Source: Promethearchaeota archaeon (GTDB lineage: Archaea; Asgardarchaeota; Lokiarchaeia; Sigyniarchaeales; SOKP01). Taken from it: a stretch of DNA of 64,000 bases. Within the stretch, counting starts at the first letter, position 1, and every line of letters starts with the position of its first letter. Made by a program: the position numbers and the translations under genes. The notes below the pieces were generated by a model. The model saw only the letters and a program-made list of their open reading frames with translations. It was not told where the DNA came from and searched no databases. Positions 3,368-56,068 of the stretch are shown piece after piece. The stretch lies in assembly GCA_016839745.1 (NCBI GenBank), contig JAEOTS010000141.1, positions 2,138-66,137 on the forward strand, given 5' to 3'.

Positions 3368-5113
3368 TTAAATCTCATAACCACACAGCTTACAAATGTG
3401 TTTCTTAGCGTATATAGGTACTATAGATATATAATATAGGATTTTTGATTTATCTTCAAATTTCTTAATATTTTTTTTGCCATGTGCTCCGCACATTGGA
3501 CATGTGATGTCATCCCATCTTTCTTTATATTTTCCTTTCTTACCCTTAATTATTTTTGCTTTCAAATTCCTAAATTGATTTCTCTTTTCAAGAAAATCAG
3601 ACAGAGATTCTTTAATAAGGTTGAAATTTCCATTTTCTATATATTCAAAGTTACATTTTATAAAACTACGGACATTCATCTTATCTGATTTGTCCATTTT
3701 TTCTTGGTTAATGTTATAAATAGAAAACAATTTTTTAAAAATAAAGGCAATTTCTCTTAAGAACGAACTTGGATTTGATAATATTCCGATTACAACATAA
3801 GTTAAACCATCTTTTTCTAACGAGAAGCATTTAGGAAGAGAAAGTGGATGTTCCCAACTATTAGGAAAATTACATTTTTCAATATAGGGAGCGTAGAGCT
3901 CTAAGATTTTTTGATCGAGATTTCCCTCTAAAAATCTTTCAACAATATAATCTACTCTGTTTTCGCCTTCTAGATAATTAAGGTCAACGTTTGAATATAT
4001 CTGCTCCTTTCCATTAAGAATTATTCCTAAATAATCAATCCATCGCGCCTTAAATCGTTTACTTAATTCAGTATCCTTTCGATGTCGACGATCTATTGGA
4101 TTATACGTTCGAATTTCAATACAATCTTCATAGTGAATATATCGTAACGGAAAATTACATGTTGGACAATAAGAAAGATCTCTTACCTTCGTTCGATTTT
4201 TTTGTAATATCTCTAAAAAATCAATACCAACCGTATTTCCACATTGTTCGCAAGTCGTATTTTCTTTTCCATTTGATAACTTTAGGATAGCATTTGATAA
4301 AATTGCGTGTATTTTTTCTCGATACACAGGATTGGACGCATCAATACCGTAAAATTTTATTCCGCGATCTGATACAATCTTCTCGCAAAATGCAGGAGTG
4401 AGCTTATTAGGCATATCTTGACAGTTTGCGATTCCAATTACCGTTTTATTTTTAGGTATAGAAAACATTTCAATATAACGAATTCTATTTATATCTGCTA
4501 AAGTTGAATTTGTAACTATTATCAATATATCCGATTTCTCTAACACCCGTTCATATACGGATCGAAAACTTTCTGTTCCTATAACCCATAGATTAATAGA
4601 ACGAGTTATCCCATTATATAGTGGTATATCAACATCGGAACGCAACGTGGGAATATATTCAGATTCAATATCGTTTCCACAAATTAAAAGTAATAAAGCT
4701 GTGCTTCCATATCCAATTAACGAAACATTAATTCCATCCAAAATTATGTCATCAATGACATTTTTAAAATCGTCGAATGGTGCTCGATTTTCTCCCCAAA
4801 TCTCGTCGTAGAGGGATTGCTCGTACTTTTCAATAAATTTTGTCCTTATGCTCAAAATTTGCGATTTAATGTGAGAATCGTCATCATCTAAATCCGAACA
4901 AACAACAATAATGATATTATTAATTACACTGTAGAAATACTTAAACTTCTCTGTTTGCGTAAGTCTGATCTCACTTTGGCTATTTTTTTCCTTGAACTCT
5001 AAAAACGAACTTAAGAAATCAGTTAATAAGTCTCTATCTATGTCAATAGTTCCGTATTCTCTAAACAGTAACGATTTTCCATTTTTTGTAAGAATATTTA
5101 CGTACTGAATCAA
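3368..5113 (-). CDS. longin-like domain + Arf/SR-beta-like pseudoGTPase + two Cys4 zinc ribbons
   Basis: The N-terminal ~115 aa have a beta-beta-alpha-beta-beta-alpha pattern (longin-like). The central domain aligns to Arf, but G1 is IGYGSTAL (no GK[ST]), G3 is WVIGTE (for WDxGGQ) and G4 is NCQD (for NKQD). CEQCG...CPTC and CPMCG...CKLCG are zinc ribbons. Confidence 0.6.
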   Translation of the reverse strand: MIQYVNILTKNGKSLLFREYGTIDIDRDLLTDFLSSFLEFKEKNSQSEIRLTQTEKFKYFYSVINNIIIVVCSDLDDDDSHIKSQILSIRTKFIEKYEQSLYDEIWGENRAPFDDFKNVIDDIILDGINVSLIGYGSTALLLLICGNDIESEYIPTLRSDVDIPLYNGITRSINLWVIGTESFRSVYERVLEKSDILIIVTNSTLADINRIRYIEMFSIPKNKTVIGIANCQDMPNKLTPAFCEKIVSDRGIKFYGIDASNPVYREKIHAILSNAILKLSNGKENTTCEQCGNTVGIDFLEILQKNRTKVRDLSYCPTCNFPLRYIHYEDCIEIRTYNPIDRRHRKDTELSKRFKARWIDYLGIILNGKEQIYSNVDLNYLEGENRVDYIVERFLEGNLDQKILELYAPYIEKCNFPNSWEHPLSLPKCFSLEKDGLTYVVIGILSNPSSFLREIAFIFKKLFSIYNINQEKMDKSDKMNVRSFIKCNFEYIENGNFNLIKESLSDFLEKRNQFRNLKAKIIKGKKGKYKERWDDITCPMCGAHGKKNIKKFEDKSKILYYISIVPIYAKKHICKLCGYEI

Positions 5114-5375
5114 CTTTTACACTTAAGGAAGTTTTTTTACTAAAAGGATCAAATATTAAATAATCACTCACGATTTTAAATACGTTTCTTTTCGTTTCTT
5201 CTTAAAAATACAAACATAGGTAAAATTGTTATTATAATAAACTAGTTACATGCGATTTTTAAGAATAAAATTGCGTAGTTTTTTATGAAATAGCATCATT
5301 ATTCTTCTTTGAGCTAGAATAAAAGGCAACAAATTTGTAGAAATTGATAAGAAAGCGCATAGGATCGATAATTAT

Positions 5376-7607
5376 ATGTTTAATTACGAGAGAAAAAGCG
5401 GAATTGATCTCGAGTATAAAATAAATAAACGCATTACCCTTAAGTTGGAGAATGGGATCACGTATATCTACATAAATGGCATTAAGTTCATTCAATGTAT
5501 GCGATTAACAATAGATATACCGAAAGAAGATATACACTTATATGATGAAGTTGATTCTATAGATGAGGCAGCCAAGTTGTATAGTAAGCATGTATATCAA
5601 AATAGAATCGTAACAGATCCTATGGCGGCTCCTGTGCATGGATTAAGGCATGACATAACTCCCGAACAGGAATTTTGGGGACATTGCTCAAACATTGAGG
5701 CTTGGGTTGAGAACGATTACGATACGAGAATATTAATGAGCAATATATCATTTCCTTTGTTAAGAGAATTGGCTCAAAATGGAGATTTATTGGCCAATAG
5801 AGTCTTCAAAGAAGAAATTGCCCTAAGACTCGAGAGTGGGTATCCTTCAGTTGTTCATTATCTCCTTGAACAAGATTTTTTGAGATTTTTTACTCCTTGT
5901 GAGTTTAAAACGATAATAGAGACCACAAAACTAGTAGAAAACCTCGTGCTTAATCAGAGTTTGTTTATGAAATTTCTAATCTATTCTACTAAGTTATTTC
6001 CAAATCAAATTAAACACATCATATTAAAATTAATATTGCTCCCTAATGGAGAAAACATTCTGATGTCTTTTCTGGCAGAAACCTCAAAAAATTATTATTA
6101 CGGAATAGATGGCAAGTTTTTTAATTCAATTATAGACGATTTGAAAGGAATGTCAAATCAGATTAGTATTGAGCATAGAAAACCTTTTAAGAAAGCTATT
6201 TTAAAAATCGAAGAGTATCTTTCTGAAGAAGACGAGAAGATGAGAAATAAATCAATTAAAGATTTTTATAAGATTATTGTACTTGGGGACCCTGCTGTAG
6301 GGAAAACCGAGCTTCTCGCGAAATTTTCATCACAATTTGAGGAGAAATATTTAAGAACCGTTGGTGTCTCAATTAAAAAATGGTCCATTGAACTGAAAGA
6401 TTATAACGCCACGGTAAATTTGATGTTTTGGAATATCGCAGGACAACCGCAATTTTATATGCTTCATCGCCCATATTTCAAAGACGCAGATGGAATTCTC
6501 CTAGTATTTGATCTTACACGTTCAAATACGTTTAGTAACATTAATAATTGGTATAGCTCAGCTGTTAAATATGGATTAAGTGGAATACCGAGAATATTAG
6601 TAGGAAATAATCTTCATTTAAAAAACGAGAGGAAAATAATACTACCAATGGGAGAACATCTAAGTGATAAATTAAACGCCCCTTATTATGAAACTTCAAC
6701 TCTTACTGGAGAAAATATTAAAGAAGTGTTCGAAAAAATCGCAGAGTTGGTATATTTAGCTCCAGAACGGAATAAAACTTTAAAAAATGAACCTATTTCC
6801 TCCAAAAATAACGAAAAAATATCTAATGATAATAACAGATTGGAAAAACCGTTAGATTGGAAAAGCAAATTAATTTTACTTAAAGAGATACAACCCTCCT
6901 CTGAGGGTAGTGCCACGGAGAAAGAGGGTGAAATCCCAATAGAAATAGATGAGAGAGAAAAACGAGCTTTAGAAACTGTTTTTAGACAATTTAAAGGTTC
7001 AAATCTAGGAAAATCTCAATCTAAGCTTATGAGTTCATTAGAAACGAGAGATCTAGTAGTTTTAACATGTAAATATAAGTTACAAACAGTATTTTTTTGG
7101 TTTTTTGGATTGTTGTTTCTTTTTTTGTGTATTACTCTTCTTTTTGGTCTTGTGTTGTTTATATTTGGTGGATTTGGACCATCGGGTGGAGTAACGATGG
7201 TAATGATTGTTTTGCTATTTCCTTTATCCTTTGGAACTAGTATTTGGTTGATTAGGTACGCACTCACTTTAAAACATTTCTTTATAGTATTACACTATCG
7301 AGGAATTTACTACAAAAAAATCGGTGAACCAAAATTCATAGCGTGGGGTGATATAGCTTGGATGCTAGGTTACACGAAGTATTTTAAAGGACAGCCAACC
7401 AAAGGAAGGGTTGTTAAAATTTATTTGAAATCTAAAAACAAAGTGCGCTTTTACTCAGGTGATTATATCTATAAAGATAAGTTTTTTGAGTTTGATGATG
7501 TTTTTATTTCATATAAATTTAGACGGTGTCCCTTTTATTCAAGGGATCATAACTCATCTGAAGTAAGTCCAATAGGATCCCGCGGGAATCCTTTAGGGTA
7601 CTTTTAA
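5376..7607 (+). CDS. multidomain Rab/Ras-like small GTPase: N-terminal helical-repeat region, GTPase, TM segments, C-terminal membrane-flanked domain
   Basis: G1 is GDPAVGKTELL and G3 is WNIAGQ. The G4 position reads GNNLHL instead of NKxD. The hydrophobic block FFWFFGLLFLFLCITLLFGLVLFIFGG...VMIVLLFPLSF follows the GTPase. Confidence 0.7.
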   Translation: MFNYERKSGIDLEYKINKRITLKLENGITYIYINGIKFIQCMRLTIDIPKEDIHLYDEVDSIDEAAKLYSKHVYQNRIVTDPMAAPVHGLRHDITPEQEFWGHCSNIEAWVENDYDTRILMSNISFPLLRELAQNGDLLANRVFKEEIALRLESGYPSVVHYLLEQDFLRFFTPCEFKTIIETTKLVENLVLNQSLFMKFLIYSTKLFPNQIKHIILKLILLPNGENILMSFLAETSKNYYYGIDGKFFNSIIDDLKGMSNQISIEHRKPFKKAILKIEEYLSEEDEKMRNKSIKDFYKIIVLGDPAVGKTELLAKFSSQFEEKYLRTVGVSIKKWSIELKDYNATVNLMFWNIAGQPQFYMLHRPYFKDADGILLVFDLTRSNTFSNINNWYSSAVKYGLSGIPRILVGNNLHLKNERKIILPMGEHLSDKLNAPYYETSTLTGENIKEVFEKIAELVYLAPERNKTLKNEPISSKNNEKISNDNNRLEKPLDWKSKLILLKEIQPSSEGSATEKEGEIPIEIDEREKRALETVFRQFKGSNLGKSQSKLMSSLETRDLVVLTCKYKLQTVFFWFFGLLFLFLCITLLFGLVLFIFGGFGPSGGVTMVMIVLLFPLSFGTSIWLIRYALTLKHFFIVLHYRGIYYKKIGEPKFIAWGDIAWMLGYTKYFKGQPTKGRVVKIYLKSKNKVRFYSGDYIYKDKFFEFDDVFISYKFRRCPFYSRDHNSSEVSPIGSRGNPLGYF

Positions 7608-7770
7608 ATCTATATCTTAATGTCCTGAATCGATATGTAGAGAGATTTCTATAGATTTATTCCCATTCAGTATTTTTAATTGTTCGCATTCCATGTTTAA
7701 GACCTAAAAGACATATCATCGTTATTATACGTAAGCGTAAAAGCTTAAGTAGAAAAACAGTAATTAGTAT

Positions 7771-7850
7771 TGGCGCTTCGCTTAGAGCGTGGCTTGGCGT
7801 CCTACTGCCCCTTCGGAGCGGACGCACCCGAGTCGCCACGGTGGGATTGT
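7771..7850. ncRNA. candidate structured small RNA (GC-rich island), class unknown
   Basis: About 52 of 77 nt are G+C by my count, in a ~30% GC background. Nested complementary segments are GTGGC(7789-93)/GCCAC(7835-39) and GCGTCC(7797-7802)/GGACGC(7820-25), plus an apical 5-bp helix. The helix has one C-A mismatch on the + strand that becomes a G-U wobble on the - strand. Confidence 0.45.
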
Positions 7851-7992
7851 ATTAACTGAGGTGACTGTCAAAATATCATTTTCAGAATTGTTTTACTCCT
7901 GAGATTGCGAATAATTAATAATTTGATAAGATTTAAATACCTAAATATTGTTTGATATGTAAACATAATAGCGCATATGAATAAGGTGCAAG

Positions 7993-8493
7993 ATGAATCT
8001 ATCTGAGTGGAAAAAGGAGGTACCGCTTATTTTTAAAAAGGTTAAAGATGACGTGCAACAGGTTTTTGATCAACATCGAAAGGGATTAACTTTAGGATTA
8101 GTTGATATGGGTATGTTCCGTGGAGGATTTATAGGTGGGATGCACTTTCAACCTGGAACAGAGATTGTTATGAATATAAGTCCGCTAAGAATCATCCTCA
8201 AAACTCAAACATATGAGATTGTCTGGGCTTATACATATCATATCCTTCTCAACTTATATCTTGAATCATTAGGCTTGATTGATGAGCAAGTTTGTAGAGA
8301 AGCGACCCTAAAAGTAAGTAAGGAAATTTATAAAGAACCAGATCATCCCGCAATACTTATGGCAACAAACGGGATTGAAACTGTTGTTCCAGATCTAAAA
8401 ATAACATACATTCCTCCTGATCGAAAGCCTGATGGGATGCCTATTGAATACATCAGAGAGTTCGATGAAGAATACGAAAATTACTATTCATAA
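7993..8493 (+). CDS. hypothetical protein
   Basis: 166-aa ORF in a 5' intergenic context. No motif recognised. Confidence 0.5.
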   Translation: MNLSEWKKEVPLIFKKVKDDVQQVFDQHRKGLTLGLVDMGMFRGGFIGGMHFQPGTEIVMNISPLRIILKTQTYEIVWAYTYHILLNLYLESLGLIDEQVCREATLKVSKEIYKEPDHPAILMATNGIETVVPDLKITYIPPDRKPDGMPIEYIREFDEEYENYYS

Positions 8494-8522
8494 ATTTTAA
8501 CTTTAGGACTTTTAGTAACTAT

Positions 8523-9248
8523 TTAAACCTTTTTTGGCTTCTTTTTACAGGAATGAGTAAATTGATCATCTTGAGTAAGGAACTTCCCGCAATACTGGCA
8601 ATTAACTTCAACTTCGGTTACTTCTTCTTTTAAGGGAGTACGAATCTGTGATTGAGGTGCCGGTTCGAAATCATCAGGGGGTCTCGGATGAGTGAAAATG
8701 TATGGATATATAAAATGATCGTCGTCATCATCATCCTTGGGTAAGAGCTTCCTTTTTTTACCAACAGTGCGTTTAAGAAATTCTATTGCTAATATTTTAC
8801 CATTCTCAGATAGTATTCTAGGAGAATAATCTTCAGCAAAAAATACACCCTCTGGAATTGCTCCAACTCTAGAAATCTCCTTAGTAACTTCCTTCTTTCC
8901 AAGAAAATTTTGCACTTTCTCGACGACAGAGTATGCGTGATCACCAATAATTATTAGTTCTCGTTCAAAACCATCAGGTATTTTAATTTCTTCTAATTTT
9001 TGCATTATCAAGTCAAAATTAGCATGAGTTTCTTCCTGAACGAGTGTTAAAAACTTTTCTTCCCATTTGGTAATAGCTTGTTTTACTAAGGCTTGTATAG
9101 TTTTCATTATTTGTTGTGGATTAATATTTGGAATTGCTACTATCCTTAATACCCAATCTACGATAAGATTTTGATTAGGAAAAACAGACCCACTCAAATC
9201 TTCATCCTTAAAAATGTAAGAATTTATTAAGGTATTCCCCTTTAGCAA
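8523..9248 (-). CDS. protein with C-terminal Pro-rich + C2HC zinc-knuckle + KKKPKK tail (frame open upstream to 9353)
   Basis: The C-terminus YPYIFTHPRPPDDF...CQYCGKFLTQDDQFTHSCKKKPKKV is paralogous to the tail of 9370-10677. The track start is TTG, and the in-frame upstream sequence reads like an HTH segment. Confidence 0.6.
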   Translation of the reverse strand: MLKGNTLINSYIFKDEDLSGSVFPNQNLIVDWVLRIVAIPNINPQQIMKTIQALVKQAITKWEEKFLTLVQEETHANFDLIMQKLEEIKIPDGFERELIIIGDHAYSVVEKVQNFLGKKEVTKEISRVGAIPEGVFFAEDYSPRILSENGKILAIEFLKRTVGKKRKLLPKDDDDDDHFIYPYIFTHPRPPDDFEPAPQSQIRTPLKEEVTEVEVNCQYCGKFLTQDDQFTHSCKKKPKKV

Positions 9249-9369
9249 ACGAATCGCCCATTTGCCGTTTATAAGCCCCAGTTGAATTCTATATGATGTC
9301 CCGGGGATTCCTAATTGGCTACTAAGGGATTCAAATCCTTTTTCAGAAATTATTTAATCAACACCTAAG

Positions 9370-10677
9370 TTATGTTTTTTTTGGCTTCTTTTTACAAGAA
9401 TGCGTAAGATGATCTTCTTTAGTAAGCTCCATTCCACAATATTGACATGCAATTTTTATTTCTGATTCCTTTTTCTTTGGAGGATGGCGAAGTTGCGCTC
9501 GACCTGCCAACGCTAAGTCGCCAGGTGGTTTTGGAGGTTTGAAAATAAAAGGAAAAGGAAAACGATCGTCTCCGTCAAACTTAGATTTCTTTGCCAAGTG
9601 CTTTGGATCCTTTGTATAAATCACTAAATTATTGTCTTCGCTACTTCCAACAATTGAGAACAATAATTCTTCTCCGTCCCGATCTATTAAGAAGCGGTCA
9701 CGGTCTTCATAGAGTCGAATCGTGATGTTATCCAAACTTTCTAATTCTGCTAAAAGTTTCGCATCTTCTTCAAGGCTTGGATCAAAATTGCACATGATCT
9801 TCAAGTTTACCGAAAAACGCACCTCGTACAGATGCAAATCTTGCAGATCGTTTATATCGGGAACTACAATTGTCACATAGTGAACCGCATTTCCTAATAT
9901 TTCTCGAATCTTTTTCAAAATCTCAGATTTAGGAATCACCATGAACGTTGAATCGATGATTTTTGCTTCAGCCTTCGAAGCAAGGTATTTCCGCAATCTC
10001 TCGTTTTCAATTTCTAACGCTTCCAAAATTTCATCGGCTTTTTCTAATTCCCCTTTTAAGATGGTTAGTTTTTTCTGATATTCTTCGATTTCTTCATCTT
10101 TCTCTGCTAAGAGATCTTTTTTAACCGTAGATGATTTCAACTCTTTTACTTCTTCTTCTTTCAAATTAATAGATGTTTCTAATGCCTTAATCTTCTGGTT
10201 TTTTATTTCTAATGACTTGCTAAGCCTATTAATTTGTTGCTCTTTTAAGTTTATTGCGTCGATCATGGTTTTTATTTGATCATCTTTCAGGTTTACCGAT
10301 TTAATTAAATTATTTATTAGTTTATCATCGTCATTAAATCCTTTGAGAAGTAAATATCCATCAGCACCAAGTTCTTTTCCTTTCTGGATATCTTCAAAAA
10401 AATTCTTAGCAGTATAAAGAATTACTAAAATTTTAGGATATTTTGACTTGATCTCAGCCAAAATATCATAGCCACTCATACTAGGGAGCAATATATCAAG
10501 CAATACGAGTGCTATTTCATTGTGTTTTTCTTTAATAATGTCTAGTGCGTCATATCCATTGCTACAAGTGATAGTTTCGTAATTCTCGAGTTGTAAAAAC
10601 TTCTCAGTCAGATTAGTTATATCTTCATTTTCCATAACGATCAAAACTTTTTTCAATGCTGGCATAAGAAACTCCAA
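9370..10677 (-). CDS. response-regulator receiver + coiled coil + alpha/beta domain + C2HC zinc-knuckle tail
   Basis: CheY-like N-terminus (KKVLIVMENED ... LVLLDILLPSMSGYD ... LYTAKN). INLK(D/E)xx(I/V) heptad-rich coiled coil. Tail FPFIFKPPKPPGD...CQYCGMELTKEDHLTHSCKKKPKKT. The likely real start is ATG at 10665. Confidence 0.75.
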   Translation of the reverse strand: MEFLMPALKKVLIVMENEDITNLTEKFLQLENYETITCSNGYDALDIIKEKHNEIALVLLDILLPSMSGYDILAEIKSKYPKILVILYTAKNFFEDIQKGKELGADGYLLLKGFNDDDKLINNLIKSVNLKDDQIKTMIDAINLKEQQINRLSKSLEIKNQKIKALETSINLKEEEVKELKSSTVKKDLLAEKDEEIEEYQKKLTILKGELEKADEILEALEIENERLRKYLASKAEAKIIDSTFMVIPKSEILKKIREILGNAVHYVTIVVPDINDLQDLHLYEVRFSVNLKIMCNFDPSLEEDAKLLAELESLDNITIRLYEDRDRFLIDRDGEELLFSIVGSSEDNNLVIYTKDPKHLAKKSKFDGDDRFPFPFIFKPPKPPGDLALAGRAQLRHPPKKKESEIKIACQYCGMELTKEDHLTHSCKKKPKKT

Positions 10678-11526
10678 TTATGTGGCATCCTTCTCATTTT
10701 TCTGAGCATACAATAATTCGGCTACTCTTTGGAAAACGAGAGTTACGTTCTCCCCAGTAGCTAAGGAGACTTCAAAATAGGGAGCGTTCAACTTTTTACT
10801 TAAATTTTGCACCATCGGGTTAATAATTTTGCGTTCTGACTCTGATTTTGCGTCATTGTTAATCCCTACTAATATTCTCGGAACTCCGCTAAGACCATAC
10901 TTGACGCAGGATTGCCACCAGTTATTGACATTACTAAAAGTGCTAGAACGCGTTGTATCAAAAACTAAAATAACGCCGTCAGCACCAATAAAGTATGGTC
11001 TGTGGAGCATATAAAATTGTGGTTGTCCGGCGATATCCCAGAACATCAAGTTGATGGTTTTATTAATTTTATCAAGAGTAATTTGTTTTTTTAAAATTGA
11101 AACGCCGACGGTTGGAAGATTTTTATCTTCAGATATATCCGTGGCAAATTTAGCAAGGAGTTCTGTTTTACCGCATTCAGGGTCACCAATCACGATAACT
11201 TTATATATTGACTCAGTATTTCCTTGGAGTTTAACACTATCTTCATTAGAAAAAGTTGGCTTAATTTTTTCGCTTTTTTCAATTGGAGTTAAATCTGAGT
11301 CAGAGGGTGTTCTATTTTTTAAACGGGATTTTTCTAATTCTTCTATTTTAACTTTCGCGTCTTCTAATTCCTGATAAACTCTATTTAATTCATTTTTTGT
11401 ATTTGCAAGTTCCCGTTCCAAATCGTTTACTTTTTTCCGTAGATCTAGTAAAAATCTTCCCTCCACTTTAATCATCCTATCGGGATATCTTTCTGCTCTT
11501 TCCCACATTGTTTTTAGGATTTTCAT
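10678..11526 (-). CDS. coiled-coil + Rab/Ras-like small GTPase (paralog of the GTPase in 5376-7607)
   Basis: G1 is GDPECGKTELL and G3 is WDIAGQPQFYMLHRPYF (the same extended motif as in 5376-7607). G4 is degenerate (VGINNDA). N-terminal ELANTKNELNRVYQELEDAKVKIEELEK is a coiled coil. Confidence 0.75.
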   Translation of the reverse strand: MKILKTMWERAERYPDRMIKVEGRFLLDLRKKVNDLERELANTKNELNRVYQELEDAKVKIEELEKSRLKNRTPSDSDLTPIEKSEKIKPTFSNEDSVKLQGNTESIYKVIVIGDPECGKTELLAKFATDISEDKNLPTVGVSILKKQITLDKINKTINLMFWDIAGQPQFYMLHRPYFIGADGVILVFDTTRSSTFSNVNNWWQSCVKYGLSGVPRILVGINNDAKSESERKIINPMVQNLSKKLNAPYFEVSLATGENVTLVFQRVAELLYAQKNEKDAT

Positions 11527-11674: not shown

Positions 11675-12274
11675 TCAAACCTTATTAAATTGTGAATAGA
11701 TGAAAAATAATTGAGCAAATTCAACACCTAACGCACCTCCACCTAAAACAATCATAGACTTAGGTAGCTTTTTTAATTGAAGTGCTTCAATATTCGTGAT
11801 ATAATCGACTTGTTCAATCCCATTTATTGGTGGAATAAAAGATGAGGAGCCAGTAGCAATAATAAAATTCTTTGCTTGGTATGTTGTTTGATTATCTACT
11901 TGAATTTTTGAATTTGATAAGAATTTAGCATTGCCCTCAACTAGGTCAACATTGGGTAATTTCTTTAGGACATTTTGGTATTTGTCGAATTGTAATTGTT
12001 TGATAAGATTATTTTTTCCCTCGATGACTTTTTGAAAATTAACAGAAATTGACGATTTTATCCCTTCAAATCTTTGCTCTCTCGATTCGTAAATTAAATC
12101 TCCTATATTTAGCAAATATTTTGTAGGAACACACCCTACATTAACGCATGTTCCACCTAAACCTATTGTATCATTATTTATCATTAGAGTTTTAATTTTT
12201 AAGTCATTAGCTTTCATTGCAGCAGCAAATCCAGCAGCTCCTCCACCAATAATTATTAAATCATATTTTCCCAT
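11675..12274 (-). pseudogene. truncated pyridine nucleotide-disulfide oxidoreductase (dihydrolipoamide dehydrogenase / mercuric reductase-like), N-terminal 199 aa only
   Basis: FAD motif IIGGGAAG and redox-active GGTCVNVGCVPTK are present. The ORF stops inside the second Rossmann motif (VLGGGALGVEFAQ). The family is normally ~450 aa and only ~150 nt remain before the next gene. Confidence 0.7.
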
Positions 12275-18272: not shown

Positions 18273-18468
18273 TAATTTTATTTTTTTTTATTTTATTTTA
18301 TCTTATTTTTACTTTTTAATTAGATAAGACTTTTAGTATCCTTTGATCTCTCATTAAGACCTTTCGATGCTGAATTTCTGATATACATAAATACAAAATC
18401 TAATACTATATTTTTATATAAGGTGATGTACTATCTCTAAAATTCTGGTTGTTGACGACGACCATACT

Positions 18469-18795
18469 TTGCTAAAGCTCTATAAGATAATATTAACAGA
18501 AGTGGGGGATTTTTCAATTGAATTCTCTACAAATGGTAAGGATGCCGTTGACAATTATAAAAATCATTCAGAAAAACCTAAAGTAATTATTATGGACCAT
18601 CGGATGCCTGTAATGAATGGTTTTGACGCAATGATCGAGATTTTGAAGTATAACAATAACACAAAAATCATCTTTGCGAGTGCTGATACAACAATGAAAG
18701 AAGTTTCTATTTCAATGGGGGCTATGGCGTTTATTAGTAAACCTTTTAAGATTCAAGAATTAATTAATTTAGTCAATAAAGCAATAAAAGAGTAA
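18469..18795 (+). CDS. single-domain response regulator (receiver); true start probably upstream at 18433-18445
   Basis: Phospho-acceptor context VIIMDHRMPVMNG and ISKPF at the end. The conserved KILVVDDD lies in frame upstream of the TTG used by the ORF track. Confidence 0.8.
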   Translation: MLKLYKIILTEVGDFSIEFSTNGKDAVDNYKNHSEKPKVIIMDHRMPVMNGFDAMIEILKYNNNTKIIFASADTTMKEVSISMGAMAFISKPFKIQELINLVNKAIKE

Positions 18796-18816
18796 TTTTA
18801 TAAGGTGTAATGAGTA

Positions 18817-21099
18817 GTGGAGAAAATTCATGATAAAGAACGAGAATTAAGAGAGTTAGAAAAAAGATACAAATTATTTTATGAATACGCTCCACTTCCT
18901 TATCAATCTTTGGATGAAGATACTAATATTATAGATGTTAATCAAGCTTGGCTTGATTTTTTAGGATATGATAAAGAAGAAGTGTTAGGGAAGTGTTTTG
19001 GGGAGTATCTAGTTCTCAAAAGTAGAGAATTATTAACTTCTAGATTTTCACATTTTAAAGACGTAGGAGTAATACGGGATGTAGAATATGAAATCGTTAA
19101 AAAAGATGGCACTCATGGAATTATTTGGTTAGATGGAAGAATAGAATTCGATAAAAACGGGAATTTTCAACAAGCACATTGTTTTTTCAAGGATATTACC
19201 GAACGGAAACGGACTGAAAAGAAATTAAAAGAATCTGAAGAAAAATTCAGAAACATAGCTGAACAATCTTTTATGAGCATTTATATCATACAGGATGGAA
19301 TTTTTAAGTATAGAAATCAGCGAGCTACGGATGTTAGTGGATATAGTAGAGAGGATATTAAGAACTGGGAACCCTATGAGTACGCAAAAATAATACACCC
19401 TGAGGATCGAGAGCTTGTTTTAGAACAATCTAAAAAAAAACAAGAAGGGGACCTCAATGTCATAAACCGCTATAAATTTCGAATAATAAAAAAATCTGGC
19501 GAGATTGTTTGGATTGATAATTTTTCTAAAACTATTAATTATAAGGGGAGACCCGCAGATTTGGTTATAACTGAAGATATAACAGAAAAAATTGTTGCAG
19601 AACAAAAACTAAAAGAATCTGAAGAAAAATATCGAACTCTCATTGAAAACATGCCTGATGCAATATATTCATCTTTACCTGATGCAAATAGTACAACATT
19701 ATTTCTATCTAATAGATGGGAGGACTGGACAGGTATACCTGTAGAAGACTATTTAAAAGATCCTAATCTTTTTTTTCAAACAATCCATCCCGATGATCGT
19801 GAGGAAACTAATAAAATATATGAAGATGCCATAAAAAATGGGAAGGAGTTTATCCTTAATTATAGAGTAAAACATAAATATACGGGTAAAGAGGTATATA
19901 TAAGAGATCATGGTGTCCCTATTAAAAACAATAAAGGAGAAATAACAAGTTATAATGGTGTAATGAGTAATATTACAGATTTAATAAAAGCAGAGGAAAA
20001 GTTAATAGAATCTGAATTAAAATATAAATATCTTTTTGAAAACGCGCAAGTAGGATTATATTGGTCTCGTATAAGTGATGGAAAATTTTTAGAATGCAAT
20101 GAAACTTTTGCGAAATTATTTGGGTACAACAATCGAGAGGAATGTTTAGCGGATTACATTGCTACTGAACATTATGTTAATCCTCACCAACGGATTGAAA
20201 TTTTAGAAGCAATTCGTACTAATAAAGAAGTTAGAGGATATGAGATACTAGTCACCAAAAGAGATGGTACTCCTATATGGTTGAGCATTTCTGCTCGAAT
20301 GTTTGAAAATGAAAATAGGATTGAGGGTGCTGCGATTGACATCACCAAACGTAAAAAAGCGGAACAAGAATTAATAGAATCTGAAGAACGATACAGAAAA
20401 GCGTATGATAAGGCTGATTTCTACAAGGATCTACTAGCGCACGATGTGGGTAATATTCTTAACAATATTAATGCTTCAGTTCAATTAATGAAAATCTGGA
20501 ACGGTGATTATAATATCTCAGAGAAAGAAAGGGACATGACTGAGATAATAAAACAACAATTAGAGAGGGGAGCATCTCTGGTTTCAAATGTGCGAAAACT
20601 TTCAGAGATAGAAGAAGGAGAAATGAGTGTAAAATCTACGGATGCAAAAAATTTACTCGGGAAGTGCATTGAAAATATTCGTTCAAGATTTCATGAAAGG
20701 GAAGTAGAAATAAATTTTAGCGCTGTTCAAGAAATTAGTAATGTTATGGGTGGGGCACTTCTAATAGATGCCTTTGAAAACCTGATAATAAACGGGGTTA
20801 TTCACAACGACAGCGAAAAAATAAGACTATGGATTGAAATATCTAAAGTTTATCAGGAAGGCAGAAATTTTGTAAAGATCGAATTTAAAGATAATGGATT
20901 AGGTATAATCGAAGATAGAAAAAAGACCATTTTTAAACGGAATTATAAAAAGGACAGGAGCACGGGTGGAATGGGTATAGGGTTGTCGTTAGTGAAAAAC
21001 ATAATCAATAGCTACGGTGGGCAGGCATGGGTCGAAAATAGGGTAATGGGGGATTATTCACAGGGTAGTAATTTTATTATCTTGTTAAAGGAAGGATAA
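18817..21099 (+). CDS. multi-PAS sensor histidine kinase
   Basis: At least four PAS/PAC-like repeats separated by EKLKESEEK(F/Y)R linkers. H-box LAHDVGNIL. HATPase_c G-boxes DNGLGI and GGMGIGLSLVKNII. GTG start 9 nt after AAGGTG. Confidence 0.9.
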   Translation: MEKIHDKERELRELEKRYKLFYEYAPLPYQSLDEDTNIIDVNQAWLDFLGYDKEEVLGKCFGEYLVLKSRELLTSRFSHFKDVGVIRDVEYEIVKKDGTHGIIWLDGRIEFDKNGNFQQAHCFFKDITERKRTEKKLKESEEKFRNIAEQSFMSIYIIQDGIFKYRNQRATDVSGYSREDIKNWEPYEYAKIIHPEDRELVLEQSKKKQEGDLNVINRYKFRIIKKSGEIVWIDNFSKTINYKGRPADLVITEDITEKIVAEQKLKESEEKYRTLIENMPDAIYSSLPDANSTTLFLSNRWEDWTGIPVEDYLKDPNLFFQTIHPDDREETNKIYEDAIKNGKEFILNYRVKHKYTGKEVYIRDHGVPIKNNKGEITSYNGVMSNITDLIKAEEKLIESELKYKYLFENAQVGLYWSRISDGKFLECNETFAKLFGYNNREECLADYIATEHYVNPHQRIEILEAIRTNKEVRGYEILVTKRDGTPIWLSISARMFENENRIEGAAIDITKRKKAEQELIESEERYRKAYDKADFYKDLLAHDVGNILNNINASVQLMKIWNGDYNISEKERDMTEIIKQQLERGASLVSNVRKLSEIEEGEMSVKSTDAKNLLGKCIENIRSRFHEREVEINFSAVQEISNVMGGALLIDAFENLIINGVIHNDSEKIRLWIEISKVYQEGRNFVKIEFKDNGLGIIEDRKKTIFKRNYKKDRSTGGMGIGLSLVKNIINSYGGQAWVENRVMGDYSQGSNFIILLKEG

Positions 21100-40855: not shown

Positions 40856-41605
40856 ATGTCAAATGAAGAACCAAAGAATGGAAAGAGGAAGAAAGAAGAA
40901 GATATTGGTGCAAGACAAAGTCAGACTATTACAGTCTATCAATTTAACGATGAGATTGGTGATTTCGAAGAGTTGATAATCGATCCAGATGTACAGTTGA
41001 AAGATTTATTAGACGACGATTTTGTTCTTCTTTTTGTAGACCCCCAACATTTTAGAGTCTGGTTATGGCACGGATTCAACACTACTACGAGAATGAAATT
41101 TATAGCTGCAAAAATGGCTCCAGCCATAAGAGATAAACACGGGATTGCTTTTAAAATTACTGCTGTTGACCAAGATAACGAAACTAATGCATTTTTAGTA
41201 ATGATGGGTTTAGCAGAAGAAATTGATTACGATCAAGCCCAAACGGGACCTGCTTATGGAGGAACAACAGAGGATCTTGAACTCCTTGAATCGTTATCAA
41301 GAGAAAAAATTCTCCTTCTTTTAGAGAAAGAAGGAATTCCTGATGGATACGAACGGAAAATGGTAATAGTAAAGAATACTATTTTTGGCTATCGTGAGTA
41401 TGAACGAAATTATTTAGGTTCTGTTATAAAAGAAAAGCAACTCTTTCCTTTAAAAGAAGAAATTGCAGACGGGAATTATTTTGCGGATGATCTTGTTCCT
41501 CGTATGCTTTTCTCTTATAACAATGTAGTTCTAACAGAATTATTACAAAAAGTAGAAAAAGACGACATTATAATAAAGAAATCACTTAAAGATTTAGATG
41601 CATAA
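40856..41605 (+). CDS. gelsolin/villin-fold domain protein
   Basis: [69 protein letters not shown] aligns block by block with gelsolin G1. The matching G1 blocks are [23 protein letters not shown], IRD and [16 protein letters not shown]. Confidence 0.6.
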   Translation: [249 protein letters not shown]

Positions 41606-55078: not shown

Positions 55079-56068
55079 ATGATGATTCCTATGGAAAATC
55101 TACCCAACCTTGATTTACTTCAATCGTTATTAACAAATTATATGTTTGATATTGACGGTGCTGTAGCGGTGGCAATTTGCGATAGAGATGGTTTTATTAT
55201 CGCATCAGAAAGCAAAGAAAAAGGAGGAAAAGATTCTGATTCCGTAATGGGAGCAATTTCAGCATTTCTAGATATATATATTGACCGAATAAAGAGCGAG
55301 TTCCAGACGCAGAGTAACTTTTTCAATATTACATCGATGCAAGATAAAAAATTTGCGTATTGTTCCATGGGACCTCGGTCTATATTAACTACTATAGCTG
55401 ATCCTACTACTTCAGATGTCGAGTTAAGAATTTATTCGGAATATATTGCTGGAAAGATTGAACTCGTGTTAGAGGGCTACGATAAAGTCTCAACAGATAT
55501 ACCAGAGATTATTCGAGTGTTGTCAAAAAGAAGAGAAGGTAAGCTTCCTAAGGGCCAGTTCACATCGAAACTGATATTAACGGGGGATTTCAAAGTCGGA
55601 AAATCGTCTCTGATTCGAAGATTTATTGAAAATCTGTTTTCAGATAGCTATATCTCAACTATAGGAGTTGAAATTTCTAAAAAAACCGTAATTATGGACG
55701 AAGACACAGAAGTTAACTTTGTTTTGTGGGATATCGGAGGTCAAATCAGCTCAATGGCACCATATAGGCATAGGTTTTACGAGGGGGCGAGCGCAGCTTT
55801 TATTGTAATAGATAGAACCCGTCCAAATAATCTAGAAAGTGTAAAAACGTGGTATAAAGATATTAAAGAATCTGTACCACGCAATATACCAGTTGTTATA
55901 GTTGGTAACAAATCGGATTTACAAGAAGAATTAGTCGTTAGTGAAGAGGAAATAAAGGTAGTTGCTAAAGAACTTGGTTTCCATTACATTTTAACATCAG
56001 CTCTAACGGGGGAAAATGTCAACGAGGCATTCCTTTACATTGCATACAGATTCATCGAAAAAATGTAA
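55079..56068 (+). CDS. Roadblock/LC7 domain fused to canonical Rab/Ras-like small GTPase
   Basis: The N-terminal ~135 aa have alpha-beta-beta-alpha-beta-beta-alpha topology (AVAVAICDRDGFIIASES...). The GTPase has intact G1 GDFKVGKSS, G3 WDIGGQ, G4 GNKSDL and G5 TSAL. Confidence 0.8.
   Translation: MMIPMENLPNLDLLQSLLTNYMFDIDGAVAVAICDRDGFIIASESKEKGGKDSDSVMGAISAFLDIYIDRIKSEFQTQSNFFNITSMQDKKFAYCSMGPRSILTTIADPTTSDVELRIYSEYIAGKIELVLEGYDKVSTDIPEIIRVLSKRREGKLPKGQFTSKLILTGDFKVGKSSLIRRFIENLFSDSYISTIGVEISKKTVIMDEDTEVNFVLWDIGGQISSMAPYRHRFYEGASAAFIVIDRTRPNNLESVKTWYKDIKESVPRNIPVVIVGNKSDLQEELVVSEEEIKVVAKELGFHYILTSALTGENVNEAFLYIAYRFIEKM

What the first reader, a model, noticed from the sequence alone, without database searches (positions are those of the whole stretch)
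3368..11526. Clustered small-GTPase / longin / receiver signalling island
About 8 kb carries five linked elements. (i) A longin-like + Arf-like pseudoGTPase + zinc-ribbon protein (3368-5113). (ii) Divergent from it, a 743-aa helical-repeat + Rab-like GTPase + TM protein (5376-7607). (iii) A GC-rich RNA-like island (7771-7850). (iv) A minus-strand gene string running coiled-coil GTPase (11526-10678), then receiver/coiled-coil/C2HC protein (the TTG at 10677 abuts the GTPase stop, or ATG 10665 lies 12 nt after it), then a second C2HC-tailed protein. (v) The 166-aa unknown convergent with that string. A Ras-superfamily GTPase translationally linked to a phospho-receiver protein suggests a hybrid of two-component and small-GTPase signalling. 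Longin and Roadblock folds are the folds used by eukaryotic GEFs (DENN, Mon1-Ccz1, TRAPP) and by the prokaryotic MglB GAP. The non-GTPase partners could therefore be the regulators. No classical GAP or GEF is recognisable. I cannot tell from sequence alone whether this combination has been described.
Basis: partly seen in the sequence, partly recalled or inferred. Interest (0 to 1): 0.8.

Follow-up and report, generated by a model that had tools for sequence, protein, structure and literature searches.

The report
Asgard small-GTPase, receiver and actin-domain gene cluster
An Asgard archaeon carries a lineage-specific cluster of Ras-type switch proteins, a phospho-receiver protein and a domain borrowed from an actin-severing protein, two of them ending in the same zinc-binding tail; the parts are mostly known kinds, but the shared tail gives a testable link between archaeal GTPases, two-component signalling and the actin cytoskeleton.

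Summary
Two Rab-like GTPases (p743, p282; G domains 61% identical) and a receiver domain (p435) are solid Pfam hits. p581 is a longin-like domain plus an Arf-like GTPase that has lost its P-loop, while 21 relatives keep intact motifs. p435 and p241 share a 64-residue C2HC zinc-knuckle, polybasic tail.

The 8-kb island as a whole is not conserved anywhere. The receiver fusion on p435 is a singleton, because about 190 relatives lack it. p166 is an inactivated HExxH protein and probably unrelated.

The parts do recur together elsewhere:
- The tail occurs on 66 metagenomic contigs, on Rab-like (often degenerate) GTPases, gelsolin domains, GTPase-gelsolin fusions and receiver domains.
- GTPase genes are about 15 times enriched next to tail genes.
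- One contig (L105) holds an independent island of receiver+tail, GTPase+NTD, a GTPase and longin-GTPase-Roadblock.
- The middle of p241 is 89% identical to "domain X" of the Asgard actin-severing protein 1DGelX.

Best reading: a modular, lineage-specific small-GTPase switch system with phosphorelay input and probable actin or membrane output. Longin-GTPase fusions and longin/two-component hybrids in Asgard are already published. It is a new variant of a known kind, of moderate interest.

The parts
3368..5113 (-). p581: longin-like domain + Arf-like pseudoGTPase + ~300-aa extension with two Zn ribbons
   Evidence: ORF. Full-length relatives P0122 (71%) and P0123 (66%). dN/dS ~0.33.
4739..5113 (-). 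p581 res 1-125: longin-like domain
   Evidence: AF2 topology beta-beta-alpha-beta-beta-beta-alpha-alpha, pLDDT 52-80. Foldseek hits AP2 sigma2 6uri_S (E 2e-6), CopZ1, and Sec22b longin 1ifq (TM 0.69).
4274..4738 (-). p581 res 126-280: Arf-like GTPase fold with destroyed G1/G3 and altered G4
   Evidence: The family profile hits Arl8/Arf1 at E 5e-15. The window has GY---GSTALL / LW-VIGTES / NCQD against family GxGGVGKT / WDFAGQ / NKQD.
3371..3508 (-). p581 C-terminal Zn ribbon (CPMCG...CKLCGY)
   Evidence: 49-61% identical to the C-terminus of the coiled-coil/Zn-ribbon proteins encoded just upstream of longin-GTPases in L005 and L060. Also present in P0124.
5376..7607 (+). p743: NTD + Rab-like GTPase + membrane module
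   Evidence: ORF. Pfam Ras E 9e-37. 54% identical over res 286-722 to the L016 GTPase+TM protein.
5409..5972 (+). p743 NTD (res 12-199), uncharacterised mobile domain
   Evidence: 43% identical to the N-terminus of an LRR protein next to the p581 ortholog in L059. Also fused to a GTPase (L105) and to a receiver (L106). No Pfam or PDB match.
6258..6761 (+). p743 G domain: G1 intact, G3 WNIAGQ, G4 NNLH, G5 STL
7041..7541 (+). p743 hydrophobic/TM module
   Evidence: The same module is fused to a longin-Arf GTPase in P0128 and to a GTPase in L016. TM character is read from the sequence.
7771..7853 (+). GC-rich conserved element, probable small structured RNA of unknown class; link to the protein genes unproven
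   Evidence: 68% GC. One of only two GC islands in the window. 66 nt are 95% identical in L096, near a tail gene. No Rfam or tRNA hit. Fold z-score ~0.
8523..9248 (-). p241: N-terminal segment + domain X + C2HC tail
   Evidence: ORF. Orthologs P0130-P0132 are 71-83% identical. dN/dS 0.14.
8760..9059 (-). p241 res 64-163: 'domain X' of Asgard 1DGelX
   Evidence: 89% identical to P0177 res 157-256. The P0177 N-terminus hits solved Asgard gelsolins 7whg and 7c2f. Domain X is of unknown function in PMC7444086. No PDB fold match.
8526..8726 (-). p241 C2HC zinc-knuckle/polybasic tail
   Evidence: AF2 pLDDT 81-88 over the knuckle.
9370..10665 (-). p435: receiver + coiled coil + alpha/beta domain + C2HC tail
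   Evidence: ORF. GGAG-ATG start. Core 65-81% identical to the 293-aa family.
10327..10647 (-). p435 receiver domain
   Evidence: Pfam Response_reg E 3e-18. Phospho-acceptor Asp, Thr and Lys are present; the acidic pair is M-E.
9583..10326 (-). p435 coiled coil + conserved alpha/beta domain
   Evidence: Homologous to a conserved ~293-aa Asgard family. No PDB or Pfam match beyond coiled coil.
9373..9576 (-). p435 C2HC tail
10678..11526 (-). p282: coiled-coil head + Rab-like GTPase (G1 and G3 intact; G4 INND, G5 SLA)
   Evidence: Pfam Ras E 2e-34. Best PDB hits are Sec4/Rab1/Thor Rab. The head is 42-50% identical to the N-terminus of the CC/Zn-ribbon proteins of L005 and L060.
7993..8493 (+). 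p166: probably NOT part of the system; inactivated member of an HExxH family
   Evidence: 148 representative clusters. Family motif LLHEYLH against window LLNLYLE. No co-occurrence with the other parts.
18427..21099 (+). Candidate phosphodonor outside the finding: stand-alone receiver + PASx3-HisKA-HATPase_c kinase
   Evidence: The link to p435 is inference only.

Best explanation
The locus is a lineage-specific, shuffled copy of small-GTPase switch modules from Promethearchaeota (Loki-type Asgard archaea). It is not a conserved eight-kilobase machine.

Shown:
- p581 descends from a conserved, active longin + Arf-like GTPase family and has become a pseudoGTPase.
- p743 and p282 are paralogs of the Rab-like GTPase that is the usual neighbour of that family. 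They have gained an N-terminal domain plus a membrane module (p743) or a coiled-coil head (p282), and both have lost the NKxD guanine-specificity motif.
- p282, p435 and p241 form an operon-like string.
- p435 is a conserved coiled-coil/alpha-beta protein that here gained a receiver domain and a C2HC tail.
- p241 carries domain X of the actin-severing 1DGelX and the same tail.
- In related contigs the tail ends Rab-like GTPases, gelsolin domains, GTPase-gelsolin fusions and receiver proteins, and tail genes sit next to GTPase genes far more often than expected.

Inferred mechanism:
- The zinc-knuckle/polybasic tail is a common docking or localisation signal that brings its bearers to one site or partner.
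- There, nucleotide-dependent switching by p282 and membrane-anchored p743 is combined with His-Asp phosphorylation of p435.
- The output acts on actin or the membrane through domain X.
- The longin pseudoGTPase p581 acts as a non-hydrolysing platform or partner for the active GTPase.
For: - Domain calls.
- A longin-Arf GTPase lies within ~1-2 kb of the Rab-like GTPase in about 25 of 34 genome loci. This holds in several different arrangements, including tandem co-duplication in L005.
- Operon junction of 12 nt with GGAG.
- Tail: 66 contigs. Census by HMM: 12 G-Tail, 4 G-Gel-Tail, 5 Gel-Tail, 3 REC-Tail, 2 G-NTD, 1 REC-NTD.
- 35 of 181 non-tail genes on tail contigs are GTPases, against 1 of 75 in background (Fisher p 4e-5). 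30 of 90 immediate neighbours of tail genes are GTPases and 22 of 90 are other tail genes.
- L105 is an independent island confirmed by Pfam.
- L078 8107-9306 is an intact GTPase + gelsolin + tail (PDB gelsolin hits E 7e-4).
- Domain X identity is 89%, and its 1DGelX context is confirmed.
- The p241 ortholog lies ~3 kb from a CC/Zn-ribbon -> longin-GTPase pair in L060-L062.
- Purifying selection, dN/dS 0.14-0.36.
- A kinase is present in the window.
Against: - No other genome or contig has the whole arrangement. Contigs from the closest relatives are short, so operon synteny could not be tested.
- The receiver fusion on p435 is a singleton.
- The p581 orthologs in L058 and L059 lack an adjacent GTPase.
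- The canonical longin-GTPase/Rab-like adjacency sits in a block that also keeps housekeeping genes (PGM-like, LigT, PUA). It may therefore partly reflect inherited synteny.
- The function of the tail is wholly inferred; it has no Pfam or PDB match.
- Domain X binding to actin is only a published hypothesis.
- The receiver has a degenerate acidic pair, and both GTPases lack NKxD, so phosphorylation and GTP binding are unproven.
- The enrichment statistic uses a small background, and the contigs are not independent.
Confidence: 0.5

Rival explanations
1. The island is a chance mosaic. Asgard genomes are rich in GTPase, longin and receiver paralogs, and this region has been rearranged. The 8 kb would then hold two or three unrelated small units (p581 alone; p743 alone; the p282-p435-p241 operon) that do not work together.
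For: - The whole arrangement is not conserved.
- The p581 orthologs have other neighbours: flavodoxin and Fic in L058, an LRR protein in L059.
- A truncated oxidoreductase lies just upstream of p282, and the inactivated p166 points to rearrangement.
- PMC10933270 reports that MK-D1 GTPase genes are generally not in operons with longin or Roadblock genes.
Against: - The same kinds of parts recur as fusions and as neighbours in independent contigs (L105, L106, L060, L005).
- In L059 the neighbour of the p581 ortholog carries the p743 NTD.
- The shared tail ties p435 and p241 to the GTPase world.
Confidence: 0.3
2. The cluster is a set of decaying duplicates. The degenerate motifs would then mark loss of function rather than new function.
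For: - The p581 P-loop is destroyed.
- p282 and p743 lack NKxD and SAK, and p743 has G3 D->N.
- p166 has lost HExxH.
- The neighbouring oxidoreductase is truncated.
- dN/dS ~0.33 is fairly relaxed.
Against: - Long intact ORFs.
- dN/dS is well below 1 in every pair.
- The pseudoGTPase state is shared by P0122 and P0123, which themselves show dN/dS 0.36.
- Orthologs of p241 and of the p435 core are 71-83% identical in other samples.
Confidence: 0.07
3. The cluster is a conflict or defence island. Tandem arrays of rapidly shuffled NTPase-like proteins with variable domains and a common terminal module are typical of immunity systems.
For: - Tandem tail genes, heavy domain shuffling, a narrow lineage distribution and degenerate NTPase motifs.
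- An LRR fusion of the NTD.
Against: - No PADLOC hit beyond coiled-coil noise.
- No nuclease, TIR, protease or other effector domain was seen.
- The partner domains are cytoskeletal (gelsolin, X) and signalling (receiver).
- No mobile-element genes in the island.
Confidence: 0.08

Closest known systems
Asgard longin-GTPase (Rag/Arf-like) multidomain proteins (Liu et al., bioRxiv 10.1101/2020.10.19.343400; Tran et al. 2024, PMC10933270)
   Same: The p581 N-half has an N-terminal longin-like fold followed by an Arf/Rag-like small-GTPase fold. Relatives also occur as longin-GTPase-Roadblock (P0126, P0127, L105), an architecture those papers describe.
   Different: The window copy and its two closest relatives have lost the P-loop Lys and the G3 motif. 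They also carry a ~300-aa Zn-ribbon extension. The recurrent pairing with one particular Rab-like GTPase family is not described in the passages I read.
Myxococcus MglA / MglB / RomR polarity module
   Same: A Ras-superfamily GTPase works together with a receiver-domain protein, and Roadblock/longin-type folds serve as GTPase partners.
   Different: There is no MglB-type Roadblock gene in the island. The GTPases here are Rab-like by best PDB hits, not MglA-like. p435 has a different architecture from RomR. No homology beyond the generic domains was shown.
Eukaryotic Rab/Ras C-terminal hypervariable region with Cys and polybasic membrane-targeting signal
   Same: In related contigs the C2HC/polybasic tail sits at the end of a long linker after a Rab-like G domain, the position of the eukaryotic targeting region. 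It ends in Cys followed by KKKP(K/E).
   Different: The cysteines fit a C-x2-C-x12-H-x-C zinc knuckle, not a CAAX or CC prenylation motif. The tail also occurs on non-GTPase proteins. Membrane binding is untested. PMC10933270 found no terminal-Cys GTPases in MK-D1.
Asgard 1DGelX gelsolin (Akil et al. 2020, PMC7444086)
   Same: p241 res 64-163 is 89% identical to domain X of the 282-aa gelsolin+X proteins.
   Different: p241 has no gelsolin domain. It has a different N-terminus and the C2HC tail. The function of domain X is itself unknown; an actin side-binding role is only proposed.
NPRL2-like longin fusions with two-component domains in Asgard (Liu et al., same preprint)
   Same: Eukaryote-like GTPase-regulator folds are combined with prokaryotic His-Asp signalling domains.
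   Different: Here the receiver is fused to a coiled-coil/alpha-beta protein, to the tail or to the NTD, not to longin. The link to GTPases is by operon, shared tail and shared NTD.

Membership tests
Ras-superfamily small GTPase, Rab-like (p282, p743) | Match to the Ras family profile and to solved Rab structures | tested here: met
   Pfam Ras E 2e-34 and 9e-37, above cut-off. PDB best hits are Sec4, Rab1 and Thor Rab, E 1e-26 to 3e-24.
Ras-superfamily small GTPase, Rab-like (p282, p743) | G1 P-loop GxxxxGK[ST] and G3 DxxG | tested here: met
   p282: GDPECGKT and WDIAGQ. p743: GDPAVGKT, but G3 is WNIAGQ (Asp to Asn).
Ras-superfamily small GTPase, Rab-like (p282, p743) | G4 NKxD and G5 SAK guanine-specificity motifs | tested here: not met
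   p282 has INND / SLA and p743 has NNLH / STL. The canonical 190-aa orthologs have NKVD / SAL.
Ras-superfamily small GTPase, Rab-like (p282, p743) | C-terminal prenylatable Cys motif of eukaryotic Rabs | tested here: not met
   p282 ends ...QKNEKDAT. p743 continues into a hydrophobic module.
Asgard longin-GTPase (p581) | N-terminal longin fold | tested here: met
   AF2 topology and Foldseek hits to AP sigma, COPI zeta and Sec22b. Model confidence is only moderate, and the alignment had 8 sequences.
Asgard longin-GTPase (p581) | Arf/Rag-like GTPase domain able to bind nucleotide | tested here: not met
   The fold and family are Arf-like. G1 is deleted, G3 is lost and G4 is NCQD in the window copy.
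Two-component response regulator (p435) | Receiver domain with phospho-acceptor Asp, conserved Thr and Lys | tested here: met
   Pfam E 3e-18.
Two-component response regulator (p435) | Acidic pair that holds Mg2+ (CheY D12/D13) | tested here: inconclusive
   The aligned residues are Met-Glu. The relatives in L105 and L106 have E-D.
Two-component response regulator (p435) | Cognate histidine kinase encoded alongside | tested here: not met
   The nearest kinase is at 18817-21099, 8 kb away, and has its own stand-alone receiver at 18427-18792.
MglA/MglB/RomR module | MglB-type Roadblock GAP gene next to the GTPase | tested here: not met
   No Robl_LC7 hit in any island protein. Roadblock appears only in relatives elsewhere.
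MglA/MglB/RomR module | MglA-type sequence features of the GTPase | not tested
   Best PDB hits are Rab/Sec4, not MglA. No dedicated comparison was made.
1DGelX gelsolin (p241) | Gelsolin/cofilin domain | tested here: not met
   A Gel HMM built here hits window 40856-41605 but not p241.
1DGelX gelsolin (p241) | Domain X | tested here: met
   89% identity over 100 residues to P0177. HMM E 2e-61.
Known anti-phage defence systems | Match to a PADLOC model | tested here: not met
   Only weak coiled-coil matches (E >= 6e-4) for p435, and none for the others.

The most novel reading that the evidence does not exclude
The C2HC zinc-knuckle/polybasic tail is a common address label. In one Promethearchaeota lineage it gathers Rab-like GTPases, gelsolin and domain-X actin regulators and phospho-receiver proteins at one cellular site. 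If so, this cluster and the GTPase-gelsolin-tail fusions would show small-GTPase control of actin remodelling with two-component input in an archaeon. That is the logic of eukaryotic Rho/Rab signalling, built from different parts.
Probability: 0.2. Interest if true: 0.85.

Novelty: new variant of a known kind. Interest (0 to 1): 0.58.

Why it matters
What the many small GTPases of Asgard archaea do, and what they act on, is an open question. Tran et al. 2024 (PMC10933270) note that genome layout rarely pairs a GTPase with a partner, and that Asgard Rabs lack a C-terminal targeting extension.

This locus and its relatives offer concrete pairings. One Rab-like family recurs beside one longin-GTPase family. 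GTPases are followed by, or fused through a common tail to, receiver, gelsolin and domain-X modules.

If the tail is a targeting or docking signal, it gives a handle for pull-downs and localisation in cultured Lokiarchaeia. It would also provide a first sequence-based link between archaeal small GTPases, phosphorelay and the actin cytoskeleton. The degenerate G4 motifs also raise the question of which nucleotide these switches use.

Tried and rejected
- Rfam (gathering and E<=10), ARAGORN with introns, and folding of both strands found nothing for the GC-rich element; fold z-score ~0.
- A 15-mer from that element hit 39 viral contigs. The matches are 15-18 nt in GC-rich phages, so they are chance.
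- The sigma-70 promoter and terminator scan was uninformative: counts equal the shuffles, and the model is wrong for archaea.
- Exact-protein look-ups of p435 failed with both starts. p282 was found only on a 2.3-kb contig from the same organism.
- The p581 model was poor beyond residue ~280 (pLDDT <50), so the C-terminal half stays unassigned.
- The p241 model gave no PDB fold match with E<=0.001.
- Profile searches of PDB sequences gave only coiled-coil noise or nothing for the p435 core, the p166 family and the p743 NTD.
- Pfam at E<=10 found nothing for the tail, domain X or the p435 alpha/beta domain.
- I first read L082 as a GTPase + domain X + tail fusion. I rejected this, because the alignment outside the tail is gap-ridden.
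- I considered that the p743 N-terminus equals the 212-aa helical protein (c1) found between the canonical gene pair, and that the p581 C-half equals the PGM-like neighbour. Neither showed similarity in BLAST.
- The regex tail hits in L021, L025 and L038 were not confirmed by the tail HMM.

Full report
**1. What is in the sequence**

The window is low in G+C (about 26-39% in 500-nt windows). Its proteins find their nearest relatives in Promethearchaeota / Lokiarchaeota MAGs.

- Pfam gives strong Ras-family matches for p743 (res 299-459) and p282 (res 109-271), and a Response_reg match for p435 (res 11-117) followed by coiled coil.
- The best solved relatives of p282 are Sec4, Rab1 and a Thorarchaeota Rab.
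- The two G domains are 61% identical.
- p435 and p241 share a 64-residue C-terminal segment at 50% identity: acidic run, FP(F/Y)P(F/Y)IF, PPxPP, then C-x2-C-G-x12-H-x-C-KKKPKK.
- The p282 stop codon abuts TTG. A GGAG lies 6 nt before the ATG at 10665, which also keeps the first strand of the receiver. I take that ATG as the start, giving a 12-nt gap.
- p435 and p241 are 121 nt apart on the same strand.

**2. p581**

A genome scan with p282 returned 53 loci. In about 25 of the 34 loci that hold a close relative of the p282/p743 G domain, a ~297-aa homolog of p581 residues 1-280 lies 1-2 kb away.

All 21 aligned homologs keep GxGGVGKT, WDFAGQ and NKQD. The window protein has a three-residue deletion that removes the P-loop Gly-Lys, a deletion in G3, and NCQD. 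Its only full-length relatives, P0122 (71%) and P0123 (66%), also lack the P-loop Lys.

The family profile matches Arl8/Arf1 at E 5e-15.

An AF2 model was poor overall (mean pLDDT 44, 8 sequences). Residues 1-125 reached pLDDT 52-80 with the longin strand/helix order. Foldseek then returned AP2 sigma2, COPI zeta and Sec22b longin for that part, and Arf/Arl/Rab for the next.

So "longin-like + Arf-like pseudoGTPase + zinc ribbons" stands. The architecture itself is published for Asgard: longin-GTPase, GTPase-Roadblock and longin-GTPase-Roadblock. Relatives here show the same core with no extension, Zn ribbons, Roadblock or a membrane module.

**3. p743 and p282 as derived paralogs**

The canonical partner gene is a stand-alone 190-aa GTPase with intact NKVD. 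It is preceded by a 212-aa helical protein and set in a block with PGM-like, LigT-like and PUA genes. That block could be inherited synteny. However, the GTPase/longin-GTPase pair also recurs as tandem duplicates in L005, in inverted form in L022 and L026, and in L105.

- **Motifs.** Both window proteins keep G1. p282 keeps G3, while p743 has WNIAGQ. Both have lost G4 and G5.
- **p743 N-terminus.** Residues 12-199 are 43% identical to the N-terminus of an LRR protein that lies ~1 kb from the p581 ortholog in L059. The same domain is fused to a GTPase in L105 and to a receiver in L106.
- **p743 hydrophobic C-terminus.** It recurs on a GTPase in L016 and on a longin-GTPase in P0128.
- **p282 head and p581 C-terminal Zn ribbon.** These match the two ends of a ~295-aa coiled-coil/Zn-ribbon protein. 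That protein is encoded just upstream of longin-GTPases in L005 and L060.

**4. p435**

About 190 relatives were found. Nearly all are ~293-aa proteins, 56-81% identical to residues ~120-365, with neither receiver nor tail. Only the window's own protein has the receiver, and only P0002 has the tail.

In L002 and L003 the canonical gene sits beside a tandem-Roadblock gene, three JAB genes, an AAA+/VWA gene and an ATP-grasp gene.

The receiver keeps the Asp, Thr and Lys that align with CheY D57, T87 and K109. The acidic pair is Met-Glu.

A PAS-HisKA-HATPase kinase with its own receiver lies at 18.4-21.1 kb.

**5. p241**

Residues 64-163 are 89% identical to the C-terminal domain of a very conserved 282-aa protein of Loki-, Heimdall- and Odin-labelled MAGs. 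The N-terminus of that protein matches solved Asgard gelsolins: 7whg at E 6e-10 and 7c2f at E 5e-7. This is the 1DGelX architecture of Akil et al. 2020. Its domain X has no known fold or function and was proposed to bind the side of actin filaments.

The AF2 model of p241 is moderate (pLDDT 64; tail knuckle 81-88). It has no PDB fold match.

Orthologs with the tail exist (P0130-P0132). In L060-L062 the ortholog lies ~3 kb from a CC/Zn-ribbon -> longin-GTPase pair.

**6. Following the tail**

A metagenome scan with an alignment of six tails gave 66 loci, mostly from a few sediment projects. HMMs built here classify the ORFs on them as follows.

| Architecture | ORFs |
|---|---|
| Tail only | 44 |
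| GTPase-Tail | 12 |
| GTPase-Gelsolin-Tail | 4 |
| Gelsolin-Tail | 5 |
| Receiver-Tail | 3 |
| X/Gelsolin/Tail | 2 |
| GTPase-NTD | 2 |
| Receiver-NTD | 1 |

- L078 8107-9306 has intact G1, G4 and G5, a gelsolin domain that hits Thor gelsolins in the PDB (E 7e-4), and the tail.
- Most GTPase-Tail proteins have a degenerate P-loop (for example GDESVEKT) and no NKxD.
- Tail genes are often tandem.
- Of 181 non-tail genes on these contigs, 35 encode GTPase domains, against 1 of 75 in a small background (window 12-64 kb, L002, L003). The odds ratio is ~18 and Fisher p is 4e-5.
- L105 carries, side by side, GTPase+NTD, Receiver+Tail, a GTPase and a longin-GTPase-Roadblock, all confirmed by Pfam.

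**7. What does not belong, or is uncertain**

- **p166.** It belongs to a widespread ~165-aa family (148 representative clusters) with a near-invariant HExxH. The window copy reads NLYLE. It never co-occurs with the other parts.
- **Upstream oxidoreductase.** It is truncated.
- **GC-rich element (7771-7853).** It is one of two GC islands in 64 kb. It is 95% identical over 66 nt to L096, near a tail gene, and carries a C(UUCG)G loop on the + strand. It has no Rfam or tRNA assignment and no folding signal above shuffles. I treat it as a probable unknown small RNA whose link to the genes is open.

**8. Selection and rivals**

dN/dS against the nearest relatives is 0.14-0.36, so these are not dead genes, though constraint is moderate. 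PADLOC finds nothing. The main rival is that the 8 kb is a mosaic of smaller units. The recurrence of the same parts as fusions and neighbours argues for a shared functional network, but not for a fixed island.

**9. Comparison and verdict**

Already known:
- longin-GTPase fusions;
- longin fusions with two-component domains in Asgard;
- a bacterial receiver/small-GTPase module (RomR/MglA);
- 1DGelX.

What I did not find described in the papers read:
- the C2HC tail as a shared terminal module;
- GTPase-gelsolin fusions;
- domain X outside gelsolin;
- the mobile NTD;
- the pseudoGTPase sub-lineage.

Tran et al. state that MK-D1 has no GTPase with terminal cysteines and that Asgard Rabs lack a C-terminal extension. 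The tail-bearing GTPases are a counter-example in form, but their function is untested.

I rate the finding a new variant of a known kind, with interest about 0.6.

Noticed in passing
window 7771-7853 (+); L096 2295-2360 and 509-535: GC-rich ~80-nt element with a C(UUCG)G loop. 66 nt are 95% identical in a metagenomic contig near a tail gene, where a second copy of its 3' 27 nt lies 1.8 kb away. No Rfam or tRNA match. Possibly an unknown small RNA or an integration-site repeat.
   Followed up: partly
window 7993-8493 (+): p166 belongs to a widespread ~165-aa family with a near-invariant HExxH motif and no Pfam or NCBIfam model. The window copy has lost all three catalytic residues (NLYLE).
   Followed up: partly
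window 11675-12274 (-): A pyridine-nucleotide disulfide oxidoreductase gene truncated to 199 aa, ending ~150 nt before p282. This suggests a rearrangement or insertion at this point.
   Followed up: no
window 40856-41605 (+): A divergent gelsolin + domain-X (1DGelX-like) paralog of 249 aa. Its gelsolin segment closely resembles that of the GTPase-gelsolin-tail protein in L078.
   Followed up: partly
window 18427-18792 and 18817-21099 (+): A stand-alone receiver followed by a three-PAS HisKA/HATPase_c histidine kinase. This is the only kinase noticed in the window.
   Followed up: no
window 55079-56068 (+): A 329-aa protein with a ~160-aa N-terminal extension and a Ras-family GTPase domain (weak Gtr1/RagA match). 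L105 5649-6647 has the same build.
   Followed up: no
L002 1-11000; L003 1-11000: The conserved 293-aa coiled-coil/alpha-beta family (the p435 core) sits in a conserved neighbourhood. It includes a tandem-Roadblock protein, three JAB/MPN proteins, a Mg-chelatase-like AAA+/VWA protein, an ATP-grasp enzyme and a small Zn-ribbon protein similar to the p241 N-terminus.
   Followed up: no
L078 8107-9306; L108 7071-8183; L074 156-1589; L104 1184-2005: Single proteins that combine a Rab-like GTPase domain, a gelsolin-like domain and the C2HC tail. The L078 copy has intact G1, G4 and G5 motifs.
   Followed up: partly
L106 4683-6086: A receiver + NTD fusion whose receiver has Asn in place of the phospho-acceptor Asp, so it is a likely pseudo-receiver.
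   Followed up: no
L005 4734-10549: Three tandem copies of the Rab-like GTPase, two of them paired with a longin-Arf GTPase, plus a coiled-coil/Zn-ribbon gene. This indicates co-duplication of the pair.
   Followed up: partly
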